A stretch of 64,000 bases of DNA from the IMG/VR virus record IMGVR_UViG_3300021400_001748; one strand, given 5' to 3'. A program made the translations under genes and the position numbers. Below are positions 3,455 to 46,575 of this stretch, one piece after another. Position 1 is the stretch's first letter. Every line of letters begins with the position of its first letter. Under the pieces are notes generated by a model, which ran no database searches, was not told where the DNA came from, and saw only the letters and a program-made list of their open reading frames with translations. The stretch comes from an uncultured virus (IMG/VR IMGVR_UViG_3300021400_001748) (Duplodnaviria > Heunggongvirae > Uroviricota > Caudoviricetes).

Positions 3455-3511
3455 TTTTTACAATTCCTATAATGAACCAATCACTTTATATTTTAAAAAG
3501 GAGGATTTATT

Positions 3512-4275: not shown

Positions 4276-4379
4276 CAAGTTATGAAACTAAAAATAGGGG
4301 AGGCGCTGCTTCTCCTATTGTTTTTCTAATTGCTTCATGATATTCTATTCGTACACTTTACTAAAAGGAGGAGAGACCT

Positions 4380-4595: not shown

Positions 4596-4702
4596 TAGAA
4601 TTTCAAAAGGCTCTATCAGAAATGGTAGGGTCTTTTTTATTCGTAAAAATTACATCAGCTATAATGTAGCATAAAGTTATTTTTAGAAAGGAGAAACTTA
4701 CT

Positions 4703-4876
4703 ATGAAGATGATGAATGACAAGGAAAGACAGGTATGTTTAGGCATTATTTCTAGAGGAATTGAGAATGCGGACTTGGCGAAAGAAAACCAGGATCGTAT
4801 TATCAGAGCTCAGAGTAGGCTGATTATTGACTTGTTGACCGAAGTCACGGCTTTAAAGAAGGAACTTGGTAAATAA
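4703..4876 (+). CDS. 57-aa hypothetical protein (not in ORF track)
   Basis: Motif, AAAGGAG RBS and hairpin. Confidence 0.6.
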   Translation: MKMMNDKERQVCLGIISRGIENADLAKENQDRIIRAQSRLIIDLLTEVTALKKELGK

Positions 4877-4998
4877 TAATTAACATTACAAAAAAGGAGG
4901 GACTTAGCACGAGACTGTTGCAAGTCCTTTCTTTTTCGCAATTTTAACATTTCCTTTAATGATATACATTAACTATTTATTATAAAGGAGGAAATGAC

Positions 4999-5172
4999 AT
5001 GAAAAGCTGGATCTTAAAAGTGATTGGATTCATTCATGGAGGCATATTGATGACTAGCATCTGTATGAATGTAATACTTGGTCTCATTATTGCACTTATG
5101 TATGAAGACAAGAAGAAAGAAAAAGAGAATCCATGGCACAGTTATAGCGGATATTATAATGGAAAGAAATGA
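4999..5172 (+). CDS. 57-aa membrane peptide (not in ORF track)
   Basis: Motif and RBS; one hydrophobic segment. Confidence 0.6.
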   Translation: MKSWILKVIGFIHGGILMTSICMNVILGLIIALMYEDKKKEKENPWHSYSGYYNGKK

Positions 5173-5233
5173 TATTTTCAAAAGCTTCAGGCAGAAATGT
5201 CTGGGGCTTTTAGTTTTCACTAAAGGAGGACAT

Positions 5234-5716
5234 ATGGACAAACTTTATATTCATTACGGGTCTAATCATTTAATCAAAGAGAAAGTTACTGAAATGAAAC
5301 ATGAAGCAGGAATCAATATGTGCATAAACAAGCCAGATTTCGGACTTTGGGGCTCTCCAGTTGACTGTGAATTCGGATGGAAGGAGTGGTGCGAATCCGA
5401 AGACTTTCATACGGATACTCTTGATCAATATTTTGTATTCAAGGTGAAAGACGGAGCCAAGATTTTTACAGTGAGAAAGAATAATGACGTATCGGATTAT
5501 CTTCACTCTCTTGGTTATCTAAATATGTTCAAGTGCATAGACTTTGATAAAATCATGAAAGAATACGACGGCATGGAATTAATTCATGGCGATAACTATA
5601 TGGATCTTCATTATGGGTATTTCTACAGTTGGGATGTTGATTCAATAGTCGTCTGGAATCCGGATGTTATCGAAGTAGTTAGGAAGCATACGCAAAAACT
5701 ACACATACTAAGATAG
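5234..5716 (+). CDS. phage hypothetical protein
   Basis: AAAGGAGG RBS before ATG at 5234; YIHYG, KPxxGLWGSP and WDVDS motifs. Confidence 0.75.
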   Translation: MDKLYIHYGSNHLIKEKVTEMKHEAGINMCINKPDFGLWGSPVDCEFGWKEWCESEDFHTDTLDQYFVFKVKDGAKIFTVRKNNDVSDYLHSLGYLNMFKCIDFDKIMKEYDGMELIHGDNYMDLHYGYFYSWDVDSIVVWNPDVIEVVRKHTQKLHILR

Positions 5717-5856
5717 AAAGGAGGTTGACCGGGAGGCCGGCAGAGGCACATCTATGGCCATATCTATGTCATCTCTATTTCACATCTAAGTAACGCTTTG
5801 AGTTAGATTGCAAGTAATTCAATGCGTTATATCTTTTTGAGAAAGGAGGCGAAAAA

Positions 5857-6012
5857 GTGGATACACTGGGCATTGTTTGTATTGTTTTTACGATTATCAT
5901 TCAAACTTTTTGTCTGGGAGAAGATTTGGGTAATTTTAAAGCGGCCGTTAAAGTTACCTGTATCTCTTTCTGGACCATGTTACTCGCTGTGTTACTATTT
6001 AAACTCATATGA
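5857..6012 (+). CDS. 51-aa peptide with two hydrophobic segments (not in ORF track)
   Basis: AAAGGAGG RBS before GTG. Confidence 0.55.
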   Translation: MDTLGIVCIVFTIIIQTFCLGEDLGNFKAAVKVTCISFWTMLLAVLLFKLI

Positions 6013-6023
6013 AAGGAACTAAA

Positions 6024-6326
6024 ATGAAGGTATTTTTAAGTTATCCAATGAATGGAAAGTCATTATCTGAACAGCTTGGAATCAGGCATGCTATGAAAGA
6101 AGCACTATGGAATCAAGGCTATGCAGGGTGCGAGGTTACTCATAATGCCTACTGTCCGATTGTAGAAGGAGCAGGTAGACTCTACTACTTAGGACAGGCT
6201 ATCTCAAAAATGGACGGATGCGATGCGGTTGCATTTCATCCTGAATGGATCATGGCGAATGGATGCAGAGTTGAAAGATTTGTTGCTGAGATATACGGAC
6301 TTACTATCATTGATCTTGACATGTAA
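6024..6326 (+). CDS. DUF4406 / nucleoside 2-deoxyribosyltransferase-like protein
   Basis: MKVFLSYPMNG ... CDAVAFHPEW..ANGCRVE pattern. Confidence 0.75.
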   Translation: MKVFLSYPMNGKSLSEQLGIRHAMKEALWNQGYAGCEVTHNAYCPIVEGAGRLYYLGQAISKMDGCDAVAFHPEWIMANGCRVERFVAEIYGLTIIDLDM

Positions 6327-6342
6327 AGGAGTGATATTTATC

Positions 6343-6627
6343 ATGTGGATTTTAATTTTGACATTTATAATCGGCTTACTGATGGGCATTGTGATAGGCA
6401 TTCCTGTAACACTATATCTCTATAAAGCAGGAACTCTTGTAATTGATCAATCTGATCTTATCACAGACAAATACTCATTCGAAATAGATAAGGATCTTGC
6501 TAAGCTGCCTCGTGAAGATTATATTTCAATGAAGATCAAAGTAATAAACGAGCGTCCAGAAGTCGTTACTGAAGAGCATGTTAAGAAGTATTTAGACGTG
6601 CCTGAAGATGACCTTGATCCGCAATAA
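6343..6627 (+). CDS. protein with an N-terminal TM helix
   Basis: RBS; hydrophobic N-terminus. Confidence 0.7.
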   Translation: MWILILTFIIGLLMGIVIGIPVTLYLYKAGTLVIDQSDLITDKYSFEIDKDLAKLPREDYISMKIKVINERPEVVTEEHVKKYLDVPEDDLDPQ

Positions 6628-6682
6628 AAACAATGGCTTTAATGAAACTATAAAATTGGTCTTAGAAAGGAGATACGGAAAC

Positions 6683-7081
6683 ATGACAACAAATTATGCG
6701 GAAACTCTTGATCAGATTCTTGAAGTAAATGCAGAATCTATATTGCAGATGGATCTGACAGATGAGAAAGCAGAAAAGGCTGTTAAGAATTTGGAAACTC
6801 TTAGCGGCATTCGTGTTCAGCTGTACCAGGCACAGCAGGAAGCATATGAAGCTGAAGTTAAGGCTCAGCAGGAAGATGCTAAGGCTGTACTTGATCGGAA
6901 GAATACGATTGCAACATGGGCAACAAATGGATTCACAGCTGTATTGATGCTTTTCTCTGCGGTAACTCCGTTTGTGATCATGAACGCTGAGAAAGAGGGC
7001 AGATTCTGGTCGAGAGCTGCCATGAATGCTGTCGAAAAGGGTCCGAAGTTTGGATTCGTAAAGGCTATTTTTAGGAAGTAG
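6683..7081 (+). CDS. coiled-coil protein with a TM segment
   Basis: Cassette with RBS. Confidence 0.7.
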   Translation: MTTNYAETLDQILEVNAESILQMDLTDEKAEKAVKNLETLSGIRVQLYQAQQEAYEAEVKAQQEDAKAVLDRKNTIATWATNGFTAVLMLFSAVTPFVIMNAEKEGRFWSRAAMNAVEKGPKFGFVKAIFRK

Positions 7082-7185
7082 TTTCAATCAGTTTAAGGCC
7101 CTGTGTGATATTTTACATGGGGTCTTAATTTTTACAAGTCGTATAGTGATACTAATTAAAATGTTTCTGAGAAAGGAGAAATGTT

Positions 7186-7533
7186 ATGAAGGAAGAAACT
7201 ATTAACAAACTTGACAGGATCAAAAGAAAGATCGATGACCATCCACTTTTGGTAGGTCTTATTATAGGCATATCAACCGTGTCGATCATTGGCATTCCGT
7301 ATTTGATTGGTTACAGGCACGGTAAAGTAGATATGCTTAATATTGTGGACAAAAGCACAGAGCCAATCATTCAGAGGGCTTTTGATATTGGCGGGGAAGT
7401 CACTTATAGGACGATCAAAGAAAAGGCACCGAAAGCTTTCGATATGATGCATAAAGAAGTTGGGACGTTTTTAACAGTTGAGTATCCTGGAGCAACAGTA
7501 GACTATTTCAAAGGAACTATCAGAGTAAAATAA
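7186..7533 (+). CDS. membrane-anchored hypothetical protein
   Basis: Cassette; weak resemblance to 18038..18415. Confidence 0.7.
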   Translation: MKEETINKLDRIKRKIDDHPLLVGLIIGISTVSIIGIPYLIGYRHGKVDMLNIVDKSTEPIIQRAFDIGGEVTYRTIKEKAPKAFDMMHKEVGTFLTVEYPGATVDYFKGTIRVK

Positions 7534-7539
7534 GTATCA

Positions 7540-8012
7540 TTAAGGGCTTGTTGCAAATGCTACAGGTCCTTATATTTTTTTCAAATTAGCAATTTTTACA
7601 GATTGTATAATGATACAAATTAAATGTTTTCAAAAGGAGGAAAACTATGGACTTTGATAACATGGGAGAAATTAAAGAGCTTTTAAAACTTGGAGATGAT
7701 TTCAGTGATGAAGAGATAACTAGTAATCTTAACAAGAATATTACGATTCAGGCCATTATTGATGATGGAGAGAATGAAGTTGTATTCCCATTGATCAAAT
7801 TGCCGGCCTGGACAGTAGTCGAAGCTTATAAAAATATTGCTAGATTTGAGAAAGGAGAGTGCACTGAAGCAGACGCAAAAGAAGAGTTCAAAAACCGCTT
7901 TAATGATCTCATTGATGTCGGAATAGTGGAAGTCTGCATTTAATTGCATTGATAAGGGCTTGTGGCAAATGCTACAGGTCCTTATATTTTTTCAAATTAG
8001 CAATTTTTGCAT
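7540..8012 (+). repeat. about 60-bp direct repeat (terminator plus promoter) flanking ORF 7647..7943; third partial copy at about 8739
   Basis: TAAGGGCTTGTtGCAAATGCTACAGGTCCTTATATTTTTTCAAATTAGCAATTTTT at about 7541 and 7953. Confidence 0.85.
7647..7943 (+). CDS. acidic hypothetical protein
   Basis: Cassette with RBS. Confidence 0.7.
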   Translation: MDFDNMGEIKELLKLGDDFSDEEITSNLNKNITIQAIIDDGENEVVFPLIKLPAWTVVEAYKNIARFEKGECTEADAKEEFKNRFNDLIDVGIVEVCI

Positions 8013-8057
8013 CTCCTATGATGAAGAATATTAATCTATTTCAAAGGAGGAATTATT

Positions 8058-8264
8058 ATGTTTAGTTTAGAAAGATTAGTAGCAAAAATAAGACTTCATT
8101 ATCATGCTAATTGTCTTGACATTAATAATGCGCTGAATCAGATGCATTTAATGCCAGATGAAAAGAATGAGAAAAGTAATGAGAAGCATGCTATGATTAT
8201 CTTTACGGATGTATTTCCGATGTTGGGAGTTGATATTTTCAAAGGGAGGAATGAGGCAGATTAA
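8058..8264 (+). CDS. hypothetical protein
   Basis: Cassette; stop codon in the terminator loop. Confidence 0.65.
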   Translation: MFSLERLVAKIRLHYHANCLDINNALNQMHLMPDEKNEKSNEKHAMIIFTDVFPMLGVDIFKGRNEAD

Positions 8265-8314
8265 ACATCTGCTTCTTTTTTTTTTCGAATTCGCAAAAAC
8301 TACACATACTAAGA

Positions 8315-8482
8315 TAGAGAGTAAATACAAACTGAAGACTAGTTTCAGTTAAGTATTGAGCTCAAGGGATAAGAGCTAGTGGTTCTAGTATCCTAAACCA
8401 TAACCAGGCATGGATATTGTTCAAGTAGAGTGGGAATCTTGAAAAGGATTCTGCACCCCTTGCAACTCTTATTTTTTTTTTT
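8315..8482 (+). ncRNA. putative structured small RNA
   Basis: Follows a promoter motif but has no RBS or ORF; several hairpins including GAATCTT-GAAA-AGGATTC; ends in a long T run. Confidence 0.5.
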
Positions 8483-8567
8483 CGAGTTTGTGAGTATGAC
8501 AAACCGCAAATAATTCATGGCTTTTAATGATACAATTCAGATTATATTTGAAAGGAGAACTGCAGTT

Positions 8568-8732
8568 ATGAAAATTAATTTAGATATCGGAAAAGCAGGA
8601 CTTGGCTTATTCGGTGCTGGCTTAGCTATATTAGCAGGCATTGTTGAGGACAAGAAAATGGAATATACCGTAGAAAAGGAGGTGAAGAAACAGCTCTCTG
8701 GAGGAGATGAATCTGAAGAAAAGAAGAAATAA
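8568..8732 (+). CDS. small membrane protein
   Basis: AAAGGAG RBS; Gly-rich hydrophobic segment. Confidence 0.65.
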   Translation: MKINLDIGKAGLGLFGAGLAILAGIVEDKKMEYTVEKEVKKQLSGGDESEEKKK

Positions 8733-8832
8733 AGGCATAAGGGCTTGCAGTTAATGCTGCAGGTCCTTATATTTTTGCAATTTTTACATCCTTTATTATA
8801 GAACATATTGATCTATAAGGAGGAAAAGGATT

Positions 8833-9072
8833 ATGAAACATGAAAAAGCTTGGTTGGCCTTAGCAGTATTTGGTTATGGAAACTTGCTAATGACAATGAT
8901 TGCAGCTTTCATAGTAAGGGTTATGTACAATTTGAGTCTTGTATCTGACACGGTAAATAGTGTCGGAACAGGAATTATGATGTACGGAATAGCCTGCTAT
9001 GGAGTGTCATTAACGACAGCTTATTTCCTTGACAAATACGAGGAGAAGGACAAAAGAAAGGAGGCGAAATAA
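8833..9072 (+). CDS. two-TM membrane protein
   Basis: Cassette; two hydrophobic segments. Confidence 0.7.
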   Translation: MKHEKAWLALAVFGYGNLLMTMIAAFIVRVMYNLSLVSDTVNSVGTGIMMYGIACYGVSLTTAYFLDKYEEKDKRKEAK

Positions 9073-9193
9073 TCCTCCTCTTTATTTTTTTCTGGCTGAA
9101 TTGAAAATAGTACGTTATAGAACAAAATGTTCGCAATATTAACATCTCCTATGATAGAACAATACATGTTCTATTATGAAAGGAGATTTTATT

Positions 9194-9370
9194 ATGTTTA
9201 AATTATTTGGAATCAGAAAATATGGAGATGGATCAAAGATTGCATGTGTTCAAGATTCAACAGAAGATATGAGTCTTGAGCACTTAGAAATCGATGAGCT
9301 CAATGAAAGGATTTTGAAAACCAATGAGAAACTTATGAAAAATTTTCAGGAGATATTAAGAAACATGTAA
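9194..9370 (+). CDS. hypothetical protein
   Basis: Cassette with RBS. Confidence 0.65.
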   Translation: MFKLFGIRKYGDGSKIACVQDSTEDMSLEHLEIDELNERILKTNEKLMKNFQEILRNM

Positions 9371-9473
9371 AGTAAATTCGGGGATCTATTACAGGTCCCT
9401 GATATTTTCGCAGTTTTTACACTTCTTATAATGAATCAAGAAGAAATGAATTCATATAAAGGAGGAAAATATT

Positions 9474-9647
9474 ATGATTAGCTTATTAACGATTGCACTT
9501 TGTTGCGTGATTCTGGCGGTATTGCTGCCTATTTTAGGAGCAATCTTTCAGGTTATTGCGCCTGTGCTAGCAGTAATAATAATCGTTATATTTGTCCCTC
9601 TGGCAATTGGAATCATTGTCGGACGGATTTCAAATAGAAAGGAGTGA
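9474..9647 (+). CDS. 57-aa very hydrophobic peptide (not in ORF track)
   Basis: AAAGGAGG RBS; flanked by repeated GGGGATCTATTACAGGTCCC hairpins at 9379 and 9655. Confidence 0.65.
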   Translation: MISLLTIALCCVILAVLLPILGAIFQVIAPVLAVIIIVIFVPLAIGIIVGRISNRKE

Positions 9648-9736
9648 TATTGAAGGGGATCTATTACAGGTCCCCACAATTTTTACAACTCCTTTAATGA
9701 AACATTCTTAAATGATACTTTAAAGGAGGATTAATT

Positions 9737-10033
9737 ATGTATTATAGTTACAAACAAGCATTAAAAGATCTATTTGAGTTAGGCGAAAAGGACCTGTGGG
9801 TAGTTCGTGCTTTCACTGAGAACGATGTAGCAGGTACTGAGGTGTTCTCTATTTATGGAACGAAAAAAGAAGCCAAAGCCTATATTAAGAGTGTAAGAAA
9901 TTATTATAAAACAAGTAGATTTTATGAGTTTCTTAGAGAAAATATAGTGACTGGCTCTTTTAGAGTCAAAGAAGTAGGAACGAACAATATACTGCTGAAT
10001 AAATTTCAGTTAATTCACGAAAGAGCTGCATAG
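9737..10033 (+). CDS. hypothetical protein
   Basis: Cassette with RBS. Confidence 0.7.
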   Translation: MYYSYKQALKDLFELGEKDLWVVRAFTENDVAGTEVFSIYGTKKEAKAYIKSVRNYYKTSRFYEFLRENIVTGSFRVKEVGTNNILLNKFQLIHERAA

Positions 10034-10115
10034 GCTCTTTTTTTTCTGCTTGAGTATTTTCGCAATTAATACACTCCTTATAATGAAATACTTATTAAAT
10101 TAAGGAGGTTCGACT

Positions 10116-10262
10116 ATGAAAAGATTATTGAAATGGATGGCAAAAGTAATATTTGAGGCAGCACTCGAAACTGTTTGGGGAATGATTGGTGCTGTAGTAA
10201 TACTTGTATCACTTGGTAAGATATTTGAATTCATAGAAAGGAGGACTAATAAGAGTAAGTAA
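10116..10262 (+). CDS. 48-aa membrane peptide (not in ORF track)
   Basis: AAGGAGGT RBS; motif upstream. Confidence 0.6.
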   Translation: MKRLLKWMAKVIFEAALETVWGMIGAVVILVSLGKIFEFIERRTNKSK

Positions 10263-10376
10263 TTCGAAGGAGATGCTGGACGAATGATATTTACATCTGG
10301 CATTTCCTTTCGCATTTTTTACACTTCTTATAATGAATCAATAGCGATTCGTTTTCAGAAAAGGAGGAAAAATAAT

Positions 10377-10445
10377 ATGTTTACAATCGGCGTTATATTG
10401 ATTTGTGCTGGATTGATCCTGTTAGTAATGGATCATAGTAAGTAA
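10377..10445 (+). CDS. 22-aa single-TM micropeptide (not in ORF track)
   Basis: Own motif, AAAGGAGG RBS and downstream hairpin; MFTIGVILICAGLILLVMDHSK. Confidence 0.55.
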   Translation: MFTIGVILICAGLILLVMDHSK

Positions 10446-10510
10446 ATCAATACGACTAAGATGGGGGCAGGATTATCTTGTCCTCTTTCTTTTTGAAAGG
10501 AGGATTATAT

Positions 10511-10942
10511 ATGAAAGGCTACACTATTTGTCCTGGATTTGGCAAGGCGTTTAAGAGAATTCGAGATCGCTATGGCATGTCAATGAAGCAATTTGGAAAG
10601 ACACTCGGCATATCATCGTCGACTTGCCATAGGTACGAGCATGAAATAGCAAAAAGAATACCAGAGGACGTGTATAATAGCTTACTTGCACTCGCTATGT
10701 ATCCGGAAGATACTAATCTATTATATTCTCTTGTAAACGAAGATGACAGCATAGATGAAGAAATGCTAAGACTTCAAGGAATTATTGATCGATTAACGGA
10801 AGAAAACAAACATTTAAAAGCGCTACTTACTGAAAAATTTATTAAGGAATGGGAAGCACAGAACAGATTATACGAGATTACCAAAAATCACAGGAAAGGC
10901 ATAGAAGACTATTTACCTGAAGCATTTAGAATAAAAGAATGA
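10511..10942 (+). CDS. XRE-family HTH protein with a coiled coil
   Basis: IRDRYGMSMKQFGKTLGISSSTCHRYE. Confidence 0.8.
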   Translation: MKGYTICPGFGKAFKRIRDRYGMSMKQFGKTLGISSSTCHRYEHEIAKRIPEDVYNSLLALAMYPEDTNLLYSLVNEDDSIDEEMLRLQGIIDRLTEENKHLKALLTEKFIKEWEAQNRLYEITKNHRKGIEDYLPEAFRIKE

Positions 10943-10984
10943 TTCGTATTTTCAATCACATTAATGAAGAGGGGAGCATAAAAA

Positions 10985-11305
10985 ATGGCACTTGTAGATA
11001 AAAATGAAATGATGGAACTTGGCAAATACTTTATTAATGGCATCGCTTACGGTGGATCTGATCCAGTTAAGGATTATATTCTGAAAGATAAGCCGTCAAT
11101 TAAACAGAAGCTTGAGACTAAAGCAACTCTTCTGAAATGCCTTAATACAGCTAAGAAGATGAAGGCAAAAGGTGCTGATCGTAATGACATGCTGGATGCA
11201 CTCACTTATGCTTATATTTTGCTTGAAACCGAAGAGCACACTATGGATCTTGGAAGAGCTAAGGCTGACTTTAGAATGGATGAGATTCAGAGGAAGTATA
11301 CTTAA
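10985..11305 (+). CDS. stand-alone paralog of a segment of the RNAP-like protein
   Basis: Ungapped manual alignment to the segment of 43392..46256 downstream of DFDGD. Confidence 0.7.
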   Translation: MALVDKNEMMELGKYFINGIAYGGSDPVKDYILKDKPSIKQKLETKATLLKCLNTAKKMKAKGADRNDMLDALTYAYILLETEEHTMDLGRAKADFRMDEIQRKYT

Positions 11306-11367
11306 ACTGTTTGAGTGTAACGAAAATCTTATGAAGTATTCATGATATATTTCTAGGGAGGAAGTTT

Positions 11368-11793
11368 ATGAGCATTGATTTGAGTACTTTAAATGATGTT
11401 GAACTTAATGAATTGTTTAAATCTATCAAGCAAGAAAAAGAACTTAGATCTAACCCTTTACGATACAAGAGCGGAATAACTAATCTTGTCACGAAAAATG
11501 AAAGCACCTTCTTGAAGTATATTGCAGAGCTTAATAAGTGCATGGGAGATGATATTCCGGAAGAAAAATTAAGTCATTATTACGAAAATTATAGAGAACT
11601 CGAAAAATCATGCTTAAAGATCTGTGATATAACACTTGGCAACTATAAAGTCCGTATCAATTCTTTAGGCTCTATTAAGCGAGGATGTAACGGCTCCATG
11701 ATAGAAATAGAGGATCCAACAGAATACGCTGAAATGTATCAGGAGCTGTTTAAAGTAATTGACAAGCATTTGTTTAAAGATGCAAAAGACTGA
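11368..11793 (+). CDS. hypothetical protein
   Basis: GGGAGG RBS. Confidence 0.7.
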   Translation: MSIDLSTLNDVELNELFKSIKQEKELRSNPLRYKSGITNLVTKNESTFLKYIAELNKCMGDDIPEEKLSHYYENYRELEKSCLKICDITLGNYKVRINSLGSIKRGCNGSMIEIEDPTEYAEMYQELFKVIDKHLFKDAKD

Positions 11794-11863
11794 TTCCGCA
11801 ATTTTTACCTTTCGTATAATGAGACAATGTAGATCTCATTAATTTTTGAAAGGAGAAAGAATT

Positions 11864-18415: not shown

Positions 18416-18419
18416 CTAT

Positions 18420-18445
18420 CGCAAAAATTACACTTGTTATAGTAG
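18420..18445 (+). promoter_or_regulatory. copy of the repeated promoter motif
   Basis: CGCAAAAATTACACTTGTTATAGTAG. Confidence 0.7.
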
Positions 18446-32271: not shown

Positions 32272-32416
32272 AGGTTACAAGTCCATTTTTGGCTAAAAAC
32301 TCGCAGAAAAAACATGGCGTATAATAGGAGCATGATTTTAGCTATTTTTAGCTACATCTGCTCCTATTTTTGCCTCGAAAAAGAGCATAGATTATATTTT
32401 TGCAAGGAGTATTATC

Positions 32417-42355: not shown

Positions 42356-42401
42356 GCCATAATATTATATTTAAAAGCAGTCTTTGCAGGTGCTATAAAT
42401 T

Positions 42402-42427
42402 CGCAAAAATTACAAGGCGTATAATAG
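42402..42427 (+). promoter_or_regulatory. copy of the repeated promoter motif upstream of the nuclease-RNAP operon
   Basis: CGCAAAAATTACAAGGCGTATAATAG. Confidence 0.7.
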
Positions 42428-42497
42428 AAGAGAAGGGATAGAATACGGCATTTCTAGAACTTCTTTTAATTTTCGAATTATTGAGAGGTGCCTTGTA

Positions 42498-42788
42498 ATG
42501 TTAGAAAACAACTTCCAGAAGAAGATCAAAAAAGAGATAAAAGAACGATTTCCTGGTTGCTACATTTACAAGACAGATTCTCAGCAGATTCAGGGAAGTC
42601 CTGATCTTTTAATTTTGCATAAAGACAAATGGGCTGCCCTTGAAGTTAAGAAAAGCGAGAATGCACCGCATAGACCAAATCAGGATTACAGAGTGAGGCA
42701 AATGAACGAGATGTCATATGCCTCTTTTATTTTTCCCGAAAATAAGGAGAAAGTGTTAAATGATTTGGAAAGATTATTCAAAGCTTAA
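42498..42788 (+). CDS. VRR-NUC domain nuclease
   Basis: GSPDL, LEVK and PNQ motifs. Confidence 0.85.
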   Translation: MLENNFQKKIKKEIKERFPGCYIYKTDSQQIQGSPDLLILHKDKWAALEVKKSENAPHRPNQDYRVRQMNEMSYASFIFPENKEKVLNDLERLFKA

Positions 42789-43389
42789 GAATACTCATGC
42801 ATTCTGCGGCGCTAGTAACTACAGATGGCGAAACTACGATCCTGAGAAACTGATTCAGAGCAAAGAGAATAGTTATGCTACAACTATTGGAACTCTTCTT
42901 CATGACAGAGCGGCGCATTATATTTCAAAACCGAAAAAGATGATTAAGAGTTCTAAAATCAGCATCTATGATTACTTGACAATTGATAATGACATTCCTG
43001 AGTCAGCTATCGACATCGACAGGCTGTTTCCGAACCTCATGAATTATGTGAATGAAACGATAGCCTTTGAGATGGATCCTGAAATAACATTATATTTCTC
43101 TGACAACTTTTATGGAACTGCAGATGCCATTTCATGGGAAGATGGATTGCTTAGAATATCTGACTTAAAGACAGGAGTTACTCCTGCTTCCTTTATGCAG
43201 CTTGAAAACTATGCTGTCTTCTTCTGCCTTGATTACAAGATTAAACCGTCACAGATCAAGAAACTTGAGTTTAGAATTTATCAAAACAACGAAGTACTGT
43301 TTGCTGATCCAGATCCGCACATATTGAACCCGATTATCGAGCAGGTAATTGAGTTCAATAAGATTCTTTCAGACTTCGAGAGGAGATAG
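42760..43389 (+). CDS. PD-(D/E)XK Cas4-like (DUF2800-like) exonuclease
   Basis: GTLLH, GTADAI, DLKTG and QLENYA motifs. Confidence 0.8.
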   Translation: MIWKDYSKLKNTHAFCGASNYRWRNYDPEKLIQSKENSYATTIGTLLHDRAAHYISKPKKMIKSSKISIYDYLTIDNDIPESAIDIDRLFPNLMNYVNETIAFEMDPEITLYFSDNFYGTADAISWEDGLLRISDLKTGVTPASFMQLENYAVFFCLDYKIKPSQIKKLEFRIYQNNEVLFADPDPHILNPIIEQVIEFNKILSDFERR

Positions 43390-43391: not shown

Positions 43392-46256
43392 ATGGACAAT
43401 TATATTTCATCAGCAAATGACGAAATGTTAGATGAATTCTTAATGCACTATGGTGTTGGTCCTGATGACAATCCACCTGGCAGAGGATCAGGAAGATATG
43501 CAAAAGGCAGCGGTGACAATCCGCTTCAGCACGACACTAGCATTTTGGGCGTTGTCGCAGACATGAAAAAGCAAGGCATGTCAGAGTCTGATATAGCTTT
43601 AGCACTTGGGTTTGTGAACCGTAAAGGTAAACCATCTACGACATCACTTAGAGCTGCACAGTCTATTGCTAAAGATCAGAGAAAGCTCGATCTGTCACAA
43701 ATGGTTCCAAGGTATAAAGAAAGCGGCATGAGCAATCAGGCTATAGCTTCTAAACTTGGAATCTCTGAATCGTCTGTTCGTAACTATCTTGATAAAGACA
43801 GAACAATTCAGCTTGGTAAGGCAACCAATGTTGCTAACAGACTGAAAGAAGAATTAAAAACGAAGCATTATATTGACGTTGGTCCTGGTGTCGAGCTTGA
43901 AAACGGCGTTTCTGCTGAACGAATGAAGACAGCACTTGAGATGATGAAGCAAGAAGGATACAAGATTCATCTTGTAAACGTTGAGCAAGTTGGAAATCCT
44001 GGGAAATACACAACGATCAAAGTAGTAGGTGAACCAGATACTGAATGGAAGACTGTTGTTCAAGATCCAAGCCTTATAAAGCCATTTCAGAGCTATGCTC
44101 AGAATGACGGTGAAACTGTTCTTGGACTTAGACCAGTTAAGTCAATTGATTCGAAGCGAGTCTATATTAATTACACTGATGAAAATGGTAAAGGCGGCGC
44201 TGAGAAAGACGGAACCATTGAACTTAGACGAGGCGTTGAAGACATTTCTCTTGGCAACAGTAGATATGCTCAGGTTCGAATTGGTGTAGATGGCACTCAT
44301 TACATGAAAGGTATGGCTATTTATAGTGATAACATACCTGACGGTTATGATGTTGTCTATAACACTAATAAAAAGATTGGAACTCCTCCCGAAGATGTCT
44401 TCAAACCTATGAAAAGGATTAAGAATCCAGATGGTTCTGATGGTCCAATCAATCAGGAGAATCCATTTGGTGCTTCTATTAAGCCTTTCAATGCTGGAGG
44501 CCAGAGCTACTGTCTTGATAAGAATGGCAATCCTACTGATCAGCTTAGAGTTATCAATAAGATTAATGATCAGGGCGACTATGCTGAGTGGTCTAAGACT
44601 ATTTCGGCACAGGTTCTTGCTAAGCAGCCATTACCACTTATCAGAAGACAGCTTGAGCTTACTTACCAGGACAAAGTTGAACAGTACAATACCATCAAGT
44701 CGTTAGATAATCCAACAATCAAGAAGAAATTGCTTGAATCATTTGCCGATGATTGTGATGCTTCTGCCGTTCACCTTAAAGCTCAGGCATTTCCTGGTCA
44801 GGCTAGTCATGCTATCATACCAATTCCTTCTTTAGCCGGCGATGACAACTACAAGAAGAAGCATGGCGTTGATGGTGAGATCTATGCACCGAATTATGAG
44901 AATGGAACGACTGTTGCTCTTATACGATACCCGCATGCTGGCACATTTGAGATTCCTATTCTTAGAGTTAATAATAACAACAAAGAAGGTCGCGCTGTTC
45001 TTGGCAATGCTCCTGACGCTGTTGGAATTAATGCTAAGATTGCAGAACGATTATCAGGTGCCGACTTTGATGGCGACACTGTTTCTGTAATACCTACAAC
45101 TCATACGAATATTCTTAGTACACCAAGACTTGACGGACTTAAGAACTTCGATCCTAAGATGTATAAGTTTGCTGACCCAAATGCACCCGGCATTAAGTCA
45201 CAAACTAAGCAGACTGAGATGGGTAAGGTTACAAACCTGATTGCAGATATGCAGATCAAGGGTGCTAAGCCTGAAGAGATTGTAAGAGCTGTTAAACATT
45301 CCATGGTTGTTATCGATTCAGAGAAGCATCATCTTGATTACAAGGCATCCGAAGCTGACAACAGAATTAAAGAGTTGAAAGAACTGTACCAGAGAACTCC
45401 TGAAGGTACTGGCGCTTCCACACTCATCACTCGTGCTGGATCAGAGAAGCATATTCCTGAGCGTAAGGTTGGCAGTGTTGAGATTACAGATCCTGTTACT
45501 GGCAAGACACGTAAGTATTATGGAGTTGATCCTCGTACTGGCGAGAAGATACTTGTGCCTACTGGTAATACTTATGAGAAAGATGGCAAGACAGTAACAA
45601 GAACGGAGACAGTTCCTTGGATGTCAATCAAGACTGACGCAAGAGAACTGATGTCATCACGTAGTAATCCAAACCCGGTAGAGCTGGCTTATGCGAACTA
45701 TGCTAACCGTATGAAAGCTATGGCTCTTGAAGCTAGGAAGGAAGCAGTGAATACCCCCGGACTCAAGAGAGACCCCCAGGCTGCCAGGGAGTACCGTGAA
45801 GAAGTTGATACCCTCACCTCTAAACTGAACATCGCTTTAAAGAATGCACCTAAAGAAAGGCAAGCTCAGATCATTGCTAATGTCACCTATAAGAATCAGA
45901 TAGAATCTAACCCATCCCTGAAGGAGGATAAGACCTATCTGAAGAGACTACGTGGCCAGGCACTTGACGCCGCTCGTCGACGCATTGGCGCTGGCAAAAC
46001 AAGGATAGACATAACTGATAGGGAATGGGAAGCTATTCAAAAGGGTGCCATTAGTGATGCAAAGCTTAGAAAGATTCTGGATAACACCAAATCTGAAGAG
46101 ATTGTTAAGCGTGCAACTCCAAGAGAAAACAAAGCTTTGTCTGCAAGCAGGGAGGCATTAGCTAAAACAATGGCCGCCTCTGGTTACACACAGGCAGAGA
46201 TAGCACAGAGACTTGGCGTGTCTGTCACTACTGTATCTAAAGCTATTAATGGTTAA
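43392..46256 (+). CDS. single-chain double-psi-barrel RNA polymerase-like protein with HTH domains
   Basis: RYPHAG followed by LSGADFDGD catalytic-type motif; HTH-like segments at both ends. Confidence 0.75.
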   Translation: MDNYISSANDEMLDEFLMHYGVGPDDNPPGRGSGRYAKGSGDNPLQHDTSILGVVADMKKQGMSESDIALALGFVNRKGKPSTTSLRAAQSIAKDQRKLDLSQMVPRYKESGMSNQAIASKLGISESSVRNYLDKDRTIQLGKATNVANRLKEELKTKHYIDVGPGVELENGVSAERMKTALEMMKQEGYKIHLVNVEQVGNPGKYTTIKVVGEPDTEWKTVVQDPSLIKPFQSYAQNDGETVLGLRPVKSIDSKRVYINYTDENGKGGAEKDGTIELRRGVEDISLGNSRYAQVRIGVDGTHYMKGMAIYSDNIPDGYDVVYNTNKKIGTPPEDVFKPMKRIKNPDGSDGPINQENPFGASIKPFNAGGQSYCLDKNGNPTDQLRVINKINDQGDYAEWSKTISAQVLAKQPLPLIRRQLELTYQDKVEQYNTIKSLDNPTIKKKLLESFADDCDASAVHLKAQAFPGQASHAIIPIPSLAGDDNYKKKHGVDGEIYAPNYENGTTVALIRYPHAGTFEIPILRVNNNNKEGRAVLGNAPDAVGINAKIAERLSGADFDGDTVSVIPTTHTNILSTPRLDGLKNFDPKMYKFADPNAPGIKSQTKQTEMGKVTNLIADMQIKGAKPEEIVRAVKHSMVVIDSEKHHLDYKASEADNRIKELKELYQRTPEGTGASTLITRAGSEKHIPERKVGSVEITDPVTGKTRKYYGVDPRTGEKILVPTGNTYEKDGKTVTRTETVPWMSIKTDARELMSSRSNPNPVELAYANYANRMKAMALEARKEAVNTPGLKRDPQAAREYREEVDTLTSKLNIALKNAPKERQAQIIANVTYKNQIESNPSLKEDKTYLKRLRGQALDAARRRIGAGKTRIDITDREWEAIQKGAISDAKLRKILDNTKSEEIVKRATPRENKALSASREALAKTMAASGYTQAEIAQRLGVSVTTVSKAING

Positions 46257-46260
46257 CGTT

Positions 46261-46521
46261 ATGGAAAAAGAATTTGCTTTAACTACTTCTGACAATCCTT
46301 TTAATCCAATAAAAGACTTTGATCGTTGGTTCTTCTTTGATCAAATTGAAAAAGGTTATTGCACTTGTCAGTATTTAGATTCAATTAGTATGAGGGGAGA
46401 CGGACTTGGTGACGTGCTGAACGATGAAATCATTGAAGCAGCAATTGATGAAGCTGTTCAACTTGACTTGATTGCTCTTCGAACAGAAAACAAAGTACAC
46501 TACGTCAAGGTAACTGGATAA
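46261..46521 (+). CDS. small acidic phage protein
   Basis: LTTSDNPFNP..DFDRW..FD motif. Confidence 0.65.
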   Translation: MEKEFALTTSDNPFNPIKDFDRWFFFDQIEKGYCTCQYLDSISMRGDGLGDVLNDEIIEAAIDEAVQLDLIALRTENKVHYVKVTG

Positions 46522-46566
46522 GTGACAGGGGGAGGGGCACACAAAATTAACCCCTCCCTCCTACAT

Positions 46567-46575
46567 CGCCGGCCT
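46567..46575 (+). other. putative cos site (cohesive end) CGCCGGCCT
   Basis: GC-rich 9-mer in an AT-rich genome, between the RNAP operon and terS, preceded by GGGGGAGGGG/CCCCTCCC repeats. Confidence 0.6.

What the first reader, a model, noticed from the sequence alone, without database searches (positions are those of the whole stretch)
43392..46256. Single-chain RNA polymerase-like protein with built-in HTH domains, probably the core of a phage-specific transcription system
Seen: a 954-aa ORF with RYPHAG...LSGADFDGD and three HTH-like segments (GMSESDIALALG, GMSNQAIASKLGISESSVRNY and C-terminal GYTQAEIAQRLGVSVTTVSK). Known: DxDGD is the Mg-binding motif of double-psi-barrel RNAPs, and single-chain phage versions exist (SPbeta YonO). 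Inference: this is a compact RNAP whose HTHs replace a sigma factor and read the repeated motif. One motif copy (42402) heads its own operon, which suggests positive feedback.
Basis: partly seen in the sequence, partly recalled or inferred. Interest (0 to 1): 0.9.

Follow-up and report, generated by a model that had tools for sequence, protein, structure and literature searches.

The report
Phage one-chain RNA polymerase with HTHs
This gut phage encodes a single-protein relative of cellular RNA polymerases with built-in DNA-reading modules, from a family already predicted in print but never tested, and a promoter-like DNA motif that accompanies the gene in phages of very different bacteria now makes its way of finding genes testable.

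Summary
It is a full-length member (E = 0) of PHROG 4291. This is the 'phage 1706 ORF75' family of HTH-flanked, YonO/QDE-1-like two-barrel polymerase homologues, predicted in print (2010, 2021) but with no assay in the papers I could search.

The catalytic signature residues are invariant or near-invariant in 66 relatives. Two of the three HTHs pass Pfam cut-offs (sigma-70 region-4 type).

- **Motif in the window:** a ~27-nt promoter-like motif has 24 copies, all on the + strand, with none expected by chance. Its spacing is not that of sigma-70.
- **Same motif elsewhere:** it recurs in the same register in Gordonia, Lactococcus and Faecalibacterium phages whose polymerases are 36-45% identical.
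- **Link to the gene:** 14 of 15 motif-bearing viral contigs encode the polymerase.
- **Own operon:** 67 of 71 polymerase loci carry a copy before the endonuclease-exonuclease-polymerase operon, followed by a terminator-like leader hairpin.

Phage 1706's homologue is recorded as a structural protein, and the N-terminus carries a head-cargo-like tag, so delivery in the virion is plausible. The scan reached the same reading before on other DNA.

The parts
43392..46256 (+). 954-aa polymerase-like gene (P0001), a member of phrog_4291, the phage 1706 ORF75 family
43428..43532 (+). Conserved N-terminal tag (residues 13-47: hydrophobic-L-x-H-Y-G, then SGRY..GSG..P.Q). It is a variant of the DUF7211 tag carried by three head-module proteins, and a candidate head-loading signal.
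   Evidence: Invariant columns H19, G21, S33, G34, R35, G41. DUF7211 sub-threshold, E 0.0015, in the window and E 0.02 in ReqiPoco6, so 2 of 5 N-termini tested. The tag pattern occurs 4 times in the + strand frames of the window.
43554..43691 (+). First HTH-like segment (residues 55-100). It is conserved in the family but not confirmed as an HTH.
   Evidence: Consensus pattern. No HTH family at E <= 1 when scanned alone, 0 of 2 fragments.
43713..43796 (+). Second HTH (residues 108-135), sigma-70 region-4 / LuxR type. The recognition helix ESSVR is invariant in the 5 phages aligned.
44208..44312 (+). Beta-like barrel motifs: D273-G274 (or D284), Q294-x-R296, K306-G307
   Evidence: Invariant or near-invariant in 66 sequences. 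R296 and K306-G307 align with YonO R266 and K271-G272 in the hhalign run. Which Asp is the counterpart is ambiguous.
44925..45077 (+). Beta-prime-like barrel motifs: R512-Y-P514-H515, then 43 residues, then D558-F-D560-G-D562 (Mg-binding loop)
   Evidence: Invariant in 66 sequences. The PF05183 match covers residues about 549-645, E 1.2e-4, below the cut-off. Aligned with YonO RSPH and DNDGD.
46149..46250 (+). C-terminal HTH (residues 920-953), sigma-70 region-4 type
   Evidence: NCBIfam sigma70-ECF matches residues 844-951, E 8.7e-7, below the cut-off.
42400..42426 (+). Promoter-like motif copy heading the endonuclease-exonuclease-polymerase operon
   Evidence: PWM score 29.2. An equivalent site is present in 67 of 71 related loci.
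42428..42467 (+). Leader hairpin followed by a T-run, between that promoter and the first gene
   Evidence: Fold -15 kcal/mol, z -1.29 on its own. Across 67 leaders the mean z is -2.5 and 33 of 67 are terminator-like, against 0-1 of 68-71 in controls.
42498..43389 (+). VRR-Nuc-type endonuclease (42498-42788) and Cas4-type exonuclease (42760-43389), co-oriented and packed directly upstream of the polymerase gene
46213..46521 (+). Small conserved gene of unknown function (phrog_4303) that always follows the polymerase gene
   Evidence: Homologues sit right after the polymerase gene in Secretariat, 1706, FP_oengus and ReqiPoco6.
124..11821 (+). Array of 21 motif copies. Most come after a terminator hairpin and lie 31-44 nt before a start codon of a small gene.
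18418..18444 (+). Isolated motif copy
   Evidence: score 17.6
32300..32326 (+). Isolated motif copy of the same subclass as the one before the polymerase operon
   Evidence: score 21.7
46563..46568 (.). Junction of the two ends of the closest complete viral record (G001). The polymerase gene ends about 310 nt before the right genome end.

Best explanation
The gene encodes a single-chain, DNA-dependent RNA polymerase of the two-barrel kind, the same ancient catalytic design as cellular polymerases, YonO and QDE-1. It is the signature enzyme of the siphovirus lineage that includes Lactococcus phage 1706, Faecalibacterium phage FP_oengus and the actinophage clusters infecting Arthrobacter, Gordonia and Streptomyces.

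**Proposed mechanism (inferred).** The enzyme finds its own promoters without a separate sigma factor. Its sigma-region-4-like HTH modules dock on the upstream part of a ~27-33-nt promoter: CGC, about 7 nt, (A/T)ACA. A T-W-T-W-A-T element 5 nt further on, followed by purines, is where the DNA opens and RNA starts.

In this phage the promoter drives about 21 small, individually terminated early genes. Two further transcription units also have a copy, one of which is the polymerase's own operon.

The polymerase's own operon is headed by the same kind of promoter. The first enzyme molecules therefore most likely arrive inside the virion, loaded through the N-terminal tag. Newly made enzyme is kept low by a terminator-like leader hairpin.

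**Shown here:** family membership, conserved catalytic residues, two HTHs, the motif and its statistics, its non-sigma-70 geometry, its conservation and position across phyla, and the leader hairpin.

**Inferred:** catalysis, DNA template, who reads the motif, virion delivery, and the role of the hairpin.
For: **Family**
- phrog_4291 matches at full length, E = 0.
- The polymerase is 36-46% identical to those of 250 phage records.
- Ruprich-Robert & Thuriaux 2010 list the phage 1706 protein as one of five YonO-like two-barrel families with eight invariant residues (passages).
- Koert et al. report HHpred 95.7% to PF05183, HTHs at both ends, and DxDGD (passages).

**Catalytic signature**
- R296, K306, R512, P514, D558, D560 and D562 are invariant, and D273 is conserved in at least 90%, of 66 sequences.
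- Order and spacing are as in the YonO family (R266, K271, R492, P494, D535/537/539) and in QDE-1.
- A collinear hhalign alignment of 295 columns joins four motif blocks.
- PF05183 hits the DFDGD region at E 1.2e-4. Among 14 control genomes the same model rings only in Bacillus subtilis.
- YonO itself is a proven DNA-dependent RNAP whose aspartate triad is essential.

**Motif in the window**
- 24 PWM sites on the + strand, 0 on the - strand, 0.0 in shuffles.
- Terminator-like sites: 22 against 5.5 expected. Sigma-70-type sites are not enriched: 58 against 46 +/- 7.
- The TTACA to TATAAT spacing is 5 nt, and any -35-like hexamer sits 13-14 nt away.

**Motif across phyla**
- The same register is found in Gordonia phage Secretariat (10 sites), Lactococcus 1706 (11) and FP_oengus (11), all on the gene strand only.
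- 14 of 15 motif-bearing viral contigs of at least 46 kb encode the polymerase.
- 4 of 4 multi-copy genome assemblies tested encode it; the 1 single-copy assembly tested does not.

**Not a sigma-A -10 element**
- Among 63 distinct sites before the polymerase operon, hexamer positions 1, 3, 5 and 6 are 61-63 of 63 conserved, while position 2 is A38/T17/G5/C3.
- TATAAT and TTTTAT forms are each 22 of 68, and the form switches at least 6 times on the polymerase tree.
- Genomes stick to one form: 47 against 2 in five TATAAT-type contigs, and 1 against 7 in five TTTTAT-type contigs.

**Reader**
- Of 14 window genes conserved in all three comparison phages, only the polymerase has HTH domains.

**Virion delivery**
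- The original record of phage 1706 calls ORF75 'structural protein'. ReqiPoco6 gp106 is labelled likewise, by similarity.
- The N-terminal tag is shared with three head-module proteins.
- The polymerase's own operon has the phage-type promoter in 67 of 71 loci.
Against:
- **Profile links to known polymerases are not significant.**
  - hhalign against YonO alone: probability 0.7%.
  - Against a 26-sequence YonO alignment: 4.1%, E 0.01.
  - Core regions only: 6.8%, E 0.005.
  - PF05183: 16.3 bits against a cut-off of 23.8.
  - Family profile against PDB sequences: only weak hits at the DxDGD loop (P23-45 gp96 E 0.17-0.24, AR9 beta-prime E 1.6).
- **Which Asp of the beta-like barrel is catalytic is ambiguous:** D273 or D284.
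- **The motif-gene link cannot be separated from shared descent.** The terminase of this lineage gives the same per-genus record counts as the polymerase, so there are no polymerase-less kin to serve as a control.
- **Covariation between promoter form and polymerase residues was untestable.** Only 4 supported independent pairs were available.
- **TTTTAT-type genomes gave few exact matches:** 7 in five contigs, 0 in one of them.
- **In this window the hexamer is a perfect TATAAT and the terminators are ordinary intrinsic ones,** so the host enzyme is not excluded here.
- **Virion association is thin.** It rests on a database label for a homologue 36-39% identical. The 2008 paper behind the label was not available to me. 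The tag match to DUF7211 is sub-threshold and seen in 2 of 5 N-termini.
- **No expression data.** No RNA run holds this DNA, so no start site is known.
Confidence: 0.55

Rival explanations
1. The repeated motif is a set of host-polymerase promoters: the TATAAT is a sigma-A -10 box and the upstream part is an UP-like or activator site. The phage polymerase does a different job, such as late-gene transcription from another, still unseen promoter, as YonO does for SPbeta.
For: - The hexamer is a perfect TATAAT in 10 strict copies in the window.
- The early units end in ordinary intrinsic terminators.
- YonO transcribes late genes only.
- This promoter class is absent from the structural region here, and a hit lies downstream of the polymerase gene in only 1 of 27 loci. 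Late genes therefore need something else.
- Under this rival, host transcription of the polymerase operon removes the need for virion delivery.
Against: - There is no -35 hexamer at 16-18 nt, and sigma-70-type sites are not enriched (58 against 46 +/- 7; 21 against 25 around the gene).
- The whole 17-base motif, not just the hexamer, is the same in phages of Actinobacteria and Firmicutes.
- Hexamer position 2, the key base for sigma-A, is T, G or C in 25 of 63 sites, while position 3 is invariant.
- Each genome keeps one hexamer form throughout.
Confidence: 0.2
2. The motif is read by another phage protein, which recruits either the phage polymerase or the host enzyme. Candidates are the small conserved protein encoded right after the polymerase gene, or a tagged HTH protein such as the one at 53696-54442. 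The polymerase's own HTHs would then serve something else, such as DNA anchoring during ejection or packaging.
For: - The small gene after the polymerase gene is conserved in all four comparison phages.
- The protein at 53696-54442 combines the head-cargo tag with a Sigma70_r4_2 HTH (E 6.8e-6). Its HTH region aligns with the polymerase's second HTH (E 0.001).
- For YonO it is still open whether extra factors are needed.
Against: - The tagged HTH protein has no tblastn match in two or more of the three comparison phages.
- The small protein has no recognisable DNA-binding domain.
- The polymerase is the only one of the 14 window genes conserved in all three comparison phages that has HTH domains, and the recognition helix of its second HTH is invariant in the 5 phages aligned.
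Confidence: 0.15
3. The protein is not a transcriptase. It might be an RNA-dependent enzyme (as its database name says), a primer-maker for replication, or a virion DNA-binding protein whose polymerase core no longer works.
For: - RefSeq and PHROG name it 'RNA-dependent RNA polymerase'.
- It is encoded beside replication and recombination genes.
- It is labelled as a structural protein in phage 1706.
- Links to known polymerases are below significance.
Against: - The catalytic residues are invariant or near-invariant across 66 relatives only 43-86% identical to the window protein, which argues for an active enzyme.
- The name comes only from the distant PF05183 relationship. YonO, which shares that relationship, is DNA-dependent.
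- The phage already has a primase-polymerase fusion (36602-40606).
- HTH DNA-binding modules plus a strand-specific promoter-like motif fit a DNA template.
Confidence: 0.07

Closest known systems
Phage 1706 ORF75 family (phrog_4291): FP_oengus gp55, ReqiPoco6 gp106, and the 'helix-turn-helix DNA-binding domain protein' at the right end of Arthrobacter, Gordonia and Streptomyces phage genomes
   Same: - Full-length homology: 36-46% identity by tblastn and BLAST and up to 48% in the five-way alignment.
- HTHs near both ends.
- The same catalytic motifs.
- The same neighbours: helicase, VRR-Nuc and Cas4 upstream, and a small conserved gene downstream.
- The same place at the right genome end.

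   Different: Nothing that sets it apart as a kind. This copy sits in a larger (~88 kb) genome of an uncultured animal-gut phage. It has a short insertion in the first HTH-like segment.
YonO of Bacillus prophage SPbeta (proven single-chain DNA-dependent RNAP; Forrest et al. 2017, passages read)
   Same: - A single chain of about 100 kDa.
- R...KG, RxPH, DxDGD and (I/M)G..SN.I motifs in the same order and with similar spacing.
- Both give only a sub-threshold PF05183 signal.
- Both are phage-encoded.
   Different: - Profile similarity is not significant: hhalign probability 0.7-6.8%.
- None of the 120 YonO-family proteins listed carries an HTH Pfam domain; they carry only PF05183 or none.
- YonO's consensus ends in four invariant cysteines.
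- YonO acts on late genes from one start site, its promoter is unknown, and no virion role has been reported.
QDE-1 / eukaryotic RNA-dependent RNA polymerases (Pfam PF05183)
   Same: Two-barrel catalytic signature. QDE-1 has D709, R738, K743, R962, P964, D1007, D1009 and D1011. This protein has D273 (or D284), R296, K306, R512, P514, D558, D560 and D562. The distance from RxP to DxDGD is 43 residues in both.
   Different: - The Pfam match is below the cut-off: 16.3 against 23.8 bits.
- This protein has HTH DNA-binding modules and a DNA promoter-like motif.
- No RNA-silencing context.
[quoted passage not shown] 2024, passages read)
   Same: How it would work: a phage-specific promoter motif found only in phages that carry the enzyme, and an enzyme brought in with the virion to transcribe the first genes. 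There are weak sequence hits to gp96 at the DxDGD loop.
   Different: - No significant sequence similarity.
- Not fused to a tape-measure or giant protein.
- HTH modules are not described for those enzymes in the passages I read.
- Virion presence here is only indicated by a record label for a homologue.
Sigma-70 region 4 and sigma-dependent promoters
   Same: Both confirmed HTHs match Sigma70_r4_2 above the cut-off. The promoter-like motif has an upstream element and an AT-rich hexamer.
   Different: - The HTHs are part of the polymerase chain.
- The two DNA elements are 5 nt apart, not 17.
- Hexamer position 2 is variable and position 3 is invariant.
- There is no sigma region 2 match above any cut-off.

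Membership tests
phrog_4291 / phage 1706 ORF75 family | Full-length profile match | tested here: met
   E = 0, 1073 bits, residues 13-953 against profile positions 8-906 of 909
phrog_4291 / phage 1706 ORF75 family | HTH DNA-binding modules at both N- and C-terminal ends (Koert et al.) | tested here: met
   Residues 96-160 and 901-954 each pass Pfam HTH cut-offs when scanned alone
phrog_4291 / phage 1706 ORF75 family | Conserved synteny: VRR-Nuc and Cas4 genes upstream, small conserved gene downstream, right end of the genome | tested here: met
Two-barrel (double-psi beta-barrel) RNA polymerase superfamily | DxDGD metal-binding loop, preceded by R-x-P | tested here: met
   R512, P514, D558, D560, G561 and D562 are invariant in 66 sequences
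Two-barrel (double-psi beta-barrel) RNA polymerase superfamily | Second barrel supplying one Asp and two basic residues (eight invariant residues in all) | tested here: inconclusive
   R296 and K306 are invariant, and D273 and D284 are conserved in at least 90%. R296 and K306-G307 align with YonO R266 and K271-G272. The Asp counterpart is ambiguous, and the assignment rests on order and spacing only.
Two-barrel (double-psi beta-barrel) RNA polymerase superfamily | Two double-psi beta-barrel folds facing one active site | not testable with these tools
   Structure prediction accepted no jobs. The ESM Atlas holds a model (pTM 0.60), but its structure search returned only the protein's own family.
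Two-barrel (double-psi beta-barrel) RNA polymerase superfamily | Significant profile similarity to an established member | tested here: inconclusive
   PF05183: E 1.2e-4, 16.3 bits against a cut-off of 23.8. hhalign to the YonO family: probability 4-7%. PDB profile hits: E 0.17-1.7. In print: HHpred 95.7%.
YonO family proper (SPbeta) | Detectable sequence homology over the length of YonO | tested here: not met
   Probability 0.7% against YonO alone, 4.1% and 6.8% against its family. Only motif blocks align.
Virion-packaged phage RNA polymerases | Protein present in purified virions | not testable with these tools
   Indirect only: a 'structural protein' label on 1706 ORF75 and ReqiPoco6 gp106. 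The source papers are not held.
Sigma-70-type promoters (as the nature of the repeated motif) | -35 and -10 hexamers 16-18 nt apart, with A at -10 position 2 | tested here: not met
   The conserved elements are 5 nt apart. Consensus-type sites are not enriched. Position 2 is not A in 25 of 63 sites.

The most novel reading that the evidence does not exclude
A self-sufficient, sigma-free two-barrel RNA polymerase. One ~105-kDa chain is carried into the cell inside the phage head through a short N-terminal cargo tag. It recognises a ~30-nt promoter with its own sigma-region-4-like HTH modules and opens a T-W-T-W-A-T element by rules different from sigma-70. It limits its own synthesis through a promoter-proximal terminator hairpin. 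The promoter and the enzyme have stayed matched while the phage lineage moved between Actinobacteria and Firmicutes, and the hexamer form switched several times.
Probability: 0.35. Interest if true: 0.8.

Novelty: new member of a known kind. Interest (0 to 1): 0.6.

Why it matters
For the best-studied single-chain two-barrel polymerase, YonO, the promoter is still unknown, and so is whether it needs helper factors. This family offers what YonO lacks:

- a short, highly conserved candidate promoter with dozens of copies per genome;
- natural variants (TATAAT against TTTTAT forms);
- cultured members in easy hosts (Lactococcus, Arthrobacter, Gordonia, Streptomyces).

The question [quoted passage not shown] therefore becomes a bench experiment.

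If the enzyme works alone on a ~30-nt promoter in hosts from two phyla, it would also be a candidate orthogonal expression tool.

Papers from 2024 and 2026 still carry the puzzling label 'RNA-dependent RNA polymerase' for it, so a clear statement of what it probably is has practical value for annotation.

Tried and rejected
- **Structure prediction and fold search.** Structure prediction accepted no job, each retry after the stated wait. No fold search was possible.
- **ESM Atlas.** It returned only the protein's own family.
- **Sequence against PDB.** The single sequence gave nothing relevant. The family profile gave only HTH hits plus weak loop hits.
- **hhalign to YonO.** Not significant. 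A third database search with the YonO profile returned only close YonO kin and added no diversity.
- **NCBIfam.** Only sub-threshold HTH and sigma hits.
- **Expression.** No RNA holder was listed for the early region, so no reads were laid.
- **Rfam.** No family at gathering score in the window.
- **ARAGORN.** No tRNA.
- **Covariation of polymerase residues with promoter form.** The highest-information columns cluster in residues 49-226 (17 of the top 30). Only 4 supported independent pairs exist, so no test is possible. I draw nothing from it.
- **Polymerase-less relatives as a natural control.** None were found. Terminase and polymerase give the same per-genus counts.
- **Leader hairpin in the window alone.** z = -1.29, not significant. 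Only the multi-locus comparison carries weight.
- **Papers not held.** Summer 2011 and Drobysheva 2021; Garneau 2008 did not turn up in the search for it.
- **A search for 'DUF7211'** found no paper.
- **The window's own assembly is not held**.
- **Considered and rejected:**
  - A canonical sigma-A reading of the motif.
  - A TTGCAA -35 box with a 13-nt spacer.
  - A -10 box 17 nt downstream of TTTACA: there is no conservation there.


Full report
**1.

An ATG-started ORF runs from 43392 to 46256 on the + strand and is 954 aa long. Its translation contains RYPHAG at residues 512-517 and LSGADFDGD at 554-562.

The window is a phage genome. All sizeable ORFs lie on one strand. PHROG matches give, in order:
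- a primase-polymerase fusion (36602-40606);
- an annealing protein, a helicase, a VRR-Nuc endonuclease and a Cas4-type exonuclease;
- this ORF;
- an HNH nuclease, the large terminase, the portal, a protease-capsid fusion, tail genes and a tape measure.

**2. What family it is**

The protein matches phrog_4291 ('RNA-dependent RNA polymerase') over residues 13-953, E = 0. Against Pfam it matches only HTH-type families.

- tblastn finds it in 250 phage records, and 249 of them cover at least 80% of it. All are below 60% identity. By genus: Arthrobacter 95, Gordonia 55, Streptomyces 54, Lactococcus 13, plus FP_oengus and gut 'Siphovirus' contigs.
- The records name it variously 'helix-turn-helix DNA-binding domain protein', 'hypothetical protein', 'putative RNA polymerase' or 'RNA-dependent RNA polymerase'.
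- In the large protein libraries, 7994 of the 7999 candidates scored match at E <= 1e-3. 831 cluster representatives (50% identity level) match at E <= 1e-30.
- The terminase of the window gives 251 phage records with the same per-genus counts; only Rhodococcus differs, 5 against 4. The polymerase-like gene is therefore a signature of this whole siphovirus lineage.

**3. It is already in print as a predicted polymerase**

- Ruprich-Robert and Thuriaux (2010; passages) list the phage 1706 protein as one of five distantly related 'YonO-like' families of two-barrel polymerases that share eight invariant residues.
- Koert et al. (bioRxiv 10.1101/842583; passages) describe exactly this protein in FP_oengus, the 1706 group and the actinophage supercluster. 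They report HHpred 95.7% to PF05183 over 286 columns, HTH domains at both ends, and the DxDGD loop. Their text has no occurrence of 'promoter'.
- Papers of 2024 and 2026 on Streptomyces phages merely repeat the database label; one calls it puzzling.
- I found no experimental work on the family in these searches: YonO + RNA polymerase + phage (14 papers); FP_oengus; YonO-like; two-barrel + single-subunit; QDE-1 + phage + HTH (0 papers).
- Subscription journals are largely outside that library.

**4. Catalytic signature**

In a 66-sequence alignment (43-86% identity to the window protein), the invariant columns include Q294, R296, K306, G307, R512, P514, S555, G556, D558, D560, G561 and D562. 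D273 and D284 are conserved in at least 90%.

| Protein | First-barrel residues | R-x-P | Asp triad | Source |
|---|---|---|---|---|
| This protein | D273 (or D284), R296, K306 | R512, P514 | D558, D560, D562 | |
| YonO family (26 sequences) | D249-G250, R266, K271-G272 | R492, P494 | D535, D537, D539 | |
| QDE-1 | D709, R738, K743 | R962, P964 | D1007, D1009, D1011 | |

The order is the same in all three. The distance from R-x-P to the triad is 43 residues here and in QDE-1, and 41 in YonO.

The formal statistics are weak.
- The PF05183 model hits residues about 549-645 at E 1.2e-4, 16.3 bits, below the 23.8-bit cut-off. Among 14 control genomes the same search rings only in Bacillus subtilis, presumably on YonO.
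- hhalign against YonO alone finds nothing (probability 0.7%).
- Against the YonO alignment, hhalign aligns RYPH with RSPH and DFDGD with DNDGD, at probability 4.1%.
- On the core regions it gives one collinear 295-column alignment. This also joins VR...KG and a further shared block, (I/M)G..SN.I, at probability 6.8% and E 0.005.
- The family profile against PDB sequences gives only weak hits at the metal loop: P23-45 gp96 at E 0.17-0.24 and AR9 beta-prime at E 1.6.

Structure prediction accepted no job at six attempts.

**5. The HTHs**

Scanned alone, residues 96-160 pass the cut-offs of Sigma70_r4_2, HTH_23, GerE and HTH_24. Residues 901-954 pass those of HTH_23, HTH_3, Sigma70_r4_2 and Sigma70_r4, among others.

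The first segment is conserved in the family but matched no HTH model, in either of 2 fragments tested.

NCBIfam's sigma70-ECF model aligns to residues 844-951 below its cut-off.

**6. The repeated motif**

In the window.
- A weight matrix built from 17 copies finds 24 sites, all on the + strand, none on the - strand, and 0.0 in 20 shuffles.
- 21 sites lie between 124 and 11821. The others are at 18418, 32300 and 42400.
- The consensus is TTCGCAA-ttt-TTACA-N5-TATAAT-G.
- In the first 13 kb almost every small gene has its own copy. The copy follows a terminator hairpin (22 terminator-like sites against 5.5 +/- 2.7 expected, 21 of them on the + strand). It lies 31-44 nt before the start codon.
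- Sigma-70-type sites are not enriched there: 58 against 46 +/- 6.9.
- The two conserved blocks are only 5 nt apart, and the TCGCA block would give a 13-14-nt spacer.

**7. The motif travels with the gene across phyla**

| Phage | Polymerase identity | Sites | Consensus |
|---|---|---|---|
| Gordonia phage Secretariat | 45% | 10 | ttCGCA-N3-ATTACA-cGCCc-TATAAT-GAGACCCC |
| Lactococcus phage 1706 | 36% | 11 | caCAtgTTTTACA-N5-TATAGT-AGAAAG |
| FP_oengus | 44% | 11 | gaCGCGAaaaa-aCA-N5-CTTTAT-G |

All sites are on the gene strand only, and all lie in the block of small genes after the tail genes.

- The strict TTACA-N5-TATAAT pattern occurs 10, 7 and 9 times on the + strand of the window, G001 and Secretariat, and never on the - strand. 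Expectation is 0.02-0.08.
- From that list I picked 15 contigs of at least 46 kb. 14 encode a polymerase homologue, at E values from 4.7e-152 to 1.6e-217. The one miss is a 78%-complete record.
- In 596 Gb of cellular genomes the same pattern gives only 106 stretches, close to the roughly 70 expected by chance (my arithmetic). The multi-copy cases are phage-sized contigs. 4 of 4 such assemblies tested encode the polymerase, and the one single-copy case tested does not.
- This association cannot be separated from common descent (see section 2). It does show that a 17-base intergenic motif has been held constant while the polymerase diverged to 42-51% identity and the hosts changed phylum. That calls for a conserved, phage-encoded reader.
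- Of the 14 window genes with matches in all of Secretariat, 1706 and FP_oengus, only the polymerase has HTH domains.

**8. A copy heads the polymerase's own operon, almost everywhere**

I fetched 80 polymerase loci from viral contigs. Of these, 71 have at least 1400 nt upstream.

- 67 of the 71 carry a site 600-1400 nt upstream of the polymerase match, mostly at about 900-1050 nt, which is where the first gene of the endonuclease-exonuclease-polymerase block begins. Each scores above every control (reverse strand and intragenic; maximum control 10.5; medians 20.6 against -7.0 and -5.4).
- The strict TATAAT form is present in only 17 of the 71.
- Among 68 loci with a full-length polymerase, the hexamer is TATAAT in 22, TTTTAT in 22, TATTAT in 9, TGTTAT in 6, TCTAAT in 3, and other forms in 6.
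- Over 63 distinct sites, the universal core is CGC (56-61 of 63), about 7 nt, A-C-A (57, 63 and 55 of 63), 5 nt, then T-W-T-W-A-T. Hexamer positions 1, 3, 5 and 6 are 61-63 of 63 conserved. Position 2 is A38/T17/G5/C3. Position 4 is A31/T30/G2. Six to seven purines follow.
- That conservation pattern is the opposite of a sigma-A -10 box. There, position 2 matters most (established knowledge, not tested here).
- The A-or-not state at position 2 changes at least 6 times on the polymerase tree.
- Genomes keep to one form. Five TATAAT-type contigs hold 47 ACA-N5-TATAATR sites, all on the gene strand, against 2 TTTTATG sites. Five TTTTAT-type contigs hold 7 against 1; one of these had no match of either kind.
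- A search for polymerase residues that co-vary with the form was underpowered (4 supported independent pairs) and proves nothing.

**9. The leader hairpin**

The promoter before the polymerase operon is followed at once by a hairpin. Its 5' arm is the purine run.

| Region folded | n | Mean z | z < -2 | Terminator-like |
|---|---|---|---|---|
| Leader, 60 nt after the hexamer | 67 | -2.5 | 41 | 33 |
| Coding control, +200 | 68 | -0.31 | 3 | 0 |
| Coding control, +400 | 68 | -0.40 | 7 | 1 |
| Upstream control, -80 to -20 | 71 | -1.21 | 22 | 0 |
| Early promoters of the window | 19 | +0.19 | 1 | not counted |

- 'Terminator-like' means the stem closes within 45 nt and at least 5 T follow in the next 8 nt.
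- In 65 of the 67 leaders the stem opens within the first 8 nt.
- In the window alone the hairpin (42428-42467) is unremarkable: -15 kcal/mol, z -1.29.
- I read it as an attenuator, or a 5' stabiliser, specific to this operon.

**10. Virion delivery (inferred)**

- The original GenBank record of phage 1706 labels ORF75 'structural protein'; RefSeq renamed it. ReqiPoco6 gp106 carries the same label by similarity.
- I could not read the papers behind these labels.
- The N-terminus (FLMHYG..., then SGRY.KGSG) resembles the DUF7211 tag (YLAHHGI.G.KWG). Three proteins of the head-assembly module carry that tag, at 49775, 52977 and 53696. Secretariat genes between terminase and portal carry it too.
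- The polymerase's match to DUF7211 is sub-threshold (E 0.0015) and seen in 2 of 5 N-termini tested.
- The tag pattern occurs four times in the + strand frames of the window, and those four are these proteins.
- The spacer of the protease-capsid fusion is studded with hydrophobic-x-His sites.
- Logic adds weight. If the polymerase reads the promoter that drives its own gene, the first molecules must come from outside, unless the host enzyme can also use that promoter.
- The gene lies about 310 nt from the right genome end. G001, an 87,960-bp record estimated to be complete, carries the identical protein at 84786-87647, and the window reads through the junction of G001's two ends at about 46563-46568.

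**11. What remains open**

- This promoter class is absent from the structural region (46.5-64 kb) here. A hit lies downstream of the polymerase gene in 1 of 27 loci. Who transcribes the late genes is unknown.
- No RNA data exist for this phage.
- The host is unknown. Near-identical DNA occurs in animal-gut metagenomes. A 90-kb contig with four motif copies is binned with a Blautia genome, which is weak evidence for a host.

**12. Earlier notes of this scan**

Another agent reached the same reading on the same protein in another assembly: family known, and a promoter that travels with the gene (e1-5889255). Several notes describe the His-site cargo tag. I found both points before opening those notes, and they are not independent evidence.

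**13. Verdict**

But it is a new member of a family already predicted to be a polymerase. What goes beyond the literature I could search is:
- the promoter-like motif and its non-sigma-70 grammar;
- its conservation with the gene across phyla;
- its place before the polymerase's own operon, with a leader hairpin;
- the indications of virion delivery.

None of these has been tested at the bench.

Noticed in passing
window 42428-42467; loci L149-L228: A terminator-like hairpin sits directly after the promoter of the endonuclease-exonuclease-polymerase operon. It is conserved as a structure rather than as a sequence: 33 of 67 leaders are terminator-like, against 0-1 of 68-71 in controls. It is absent from the early promoters of the window.
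   Followed up: partly
window 49775-51235, 52977-53678, 53696-54442 and 43428-43532; L015 1707-4739: A short N-terminal tag (Pfam DUF7211, YLAHHGI.G.KWG) is carried by three proteins of the head-assembly module, and a variant opens the polymerase. The spacer of the protease-capsid fusion (55756-57657) holds six hydrophobic-x-His sites. This may be a head-loading and cleavage code. The scan has noted it before on other DNA.
   Followed up: partly
window 53696-54442: A 248-aa protein combines the DUF7211 tag with a C-terminal Sigma70_r4_2 HTH (E 6.8e-6). Its HTH region aligns with the polymerase's second HTH (E 0.001). It has no match in two or more of the three comparison phages.
   Followed up: partly
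window 46213-46521: A small acidic protein (phrog_4303, no Pfam or NCBIfam match) is encoded immediately after the polymerase gene in every family member examined. It could be an accessory factor.
   Followed up: no
window 36279-36601: A 323-nt gap before the primase-polymerase gene holds direct and inverted copies of a 9-nt iteron (CATTACATT / AATGTAATG), a 23-nt inverted repeat and AT-rich runs. It looks like a replication origin.
   Followed up: partly
window 46522-46740: A G-rich/C-rich stretch (GGGGGAGGGG...CCCCTCCCTCC) flanks the point where the two ends of the closest complete record meet (about 46563-46568). This is probably the cos or packaging site. An HNH nuclease gene lies just downstream (47156-47575).
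   Followed up: partly
window 1203-1231: A perfect sigma-70 consensus (TTGACA, 17 nt, TATAAT) lies on the + strand inside the early region, apart from the phage-type motifs. It may be a true host-polymerase promoter.
   Followed up: no
window 48015-48866: A gene with collagen-like G-x-y repeats (tail-fibre PHROG matches) lies between the HNH gene and the structural operon. It is followed by a 430-nt gap with a strong terminator at 49171-49203.
   Followed up: no
L012 2630-3060; L015 45160-45480; L010 4235-4540: In phages 1706, Secretariat and ReqiPoco6, the gaps near the polymerase or HNH gene hold several direct and inverted repeats. One example in 1706 is three to four copies of a ~30-nt unit ending in ...CTTCGGGA. 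Their function is unknown.
   Followed up: no
window 14137-14985, 16604-17527, 33018-34112: Three paralogous genes of phrog_2152 are present (annotated DUF6353 in FP_oengus). Two of the three (16604-17527 and 33018-34112) also have tblastn matches in Secretariat and FP_oengus. Their function is unknown.
   Followed up: no
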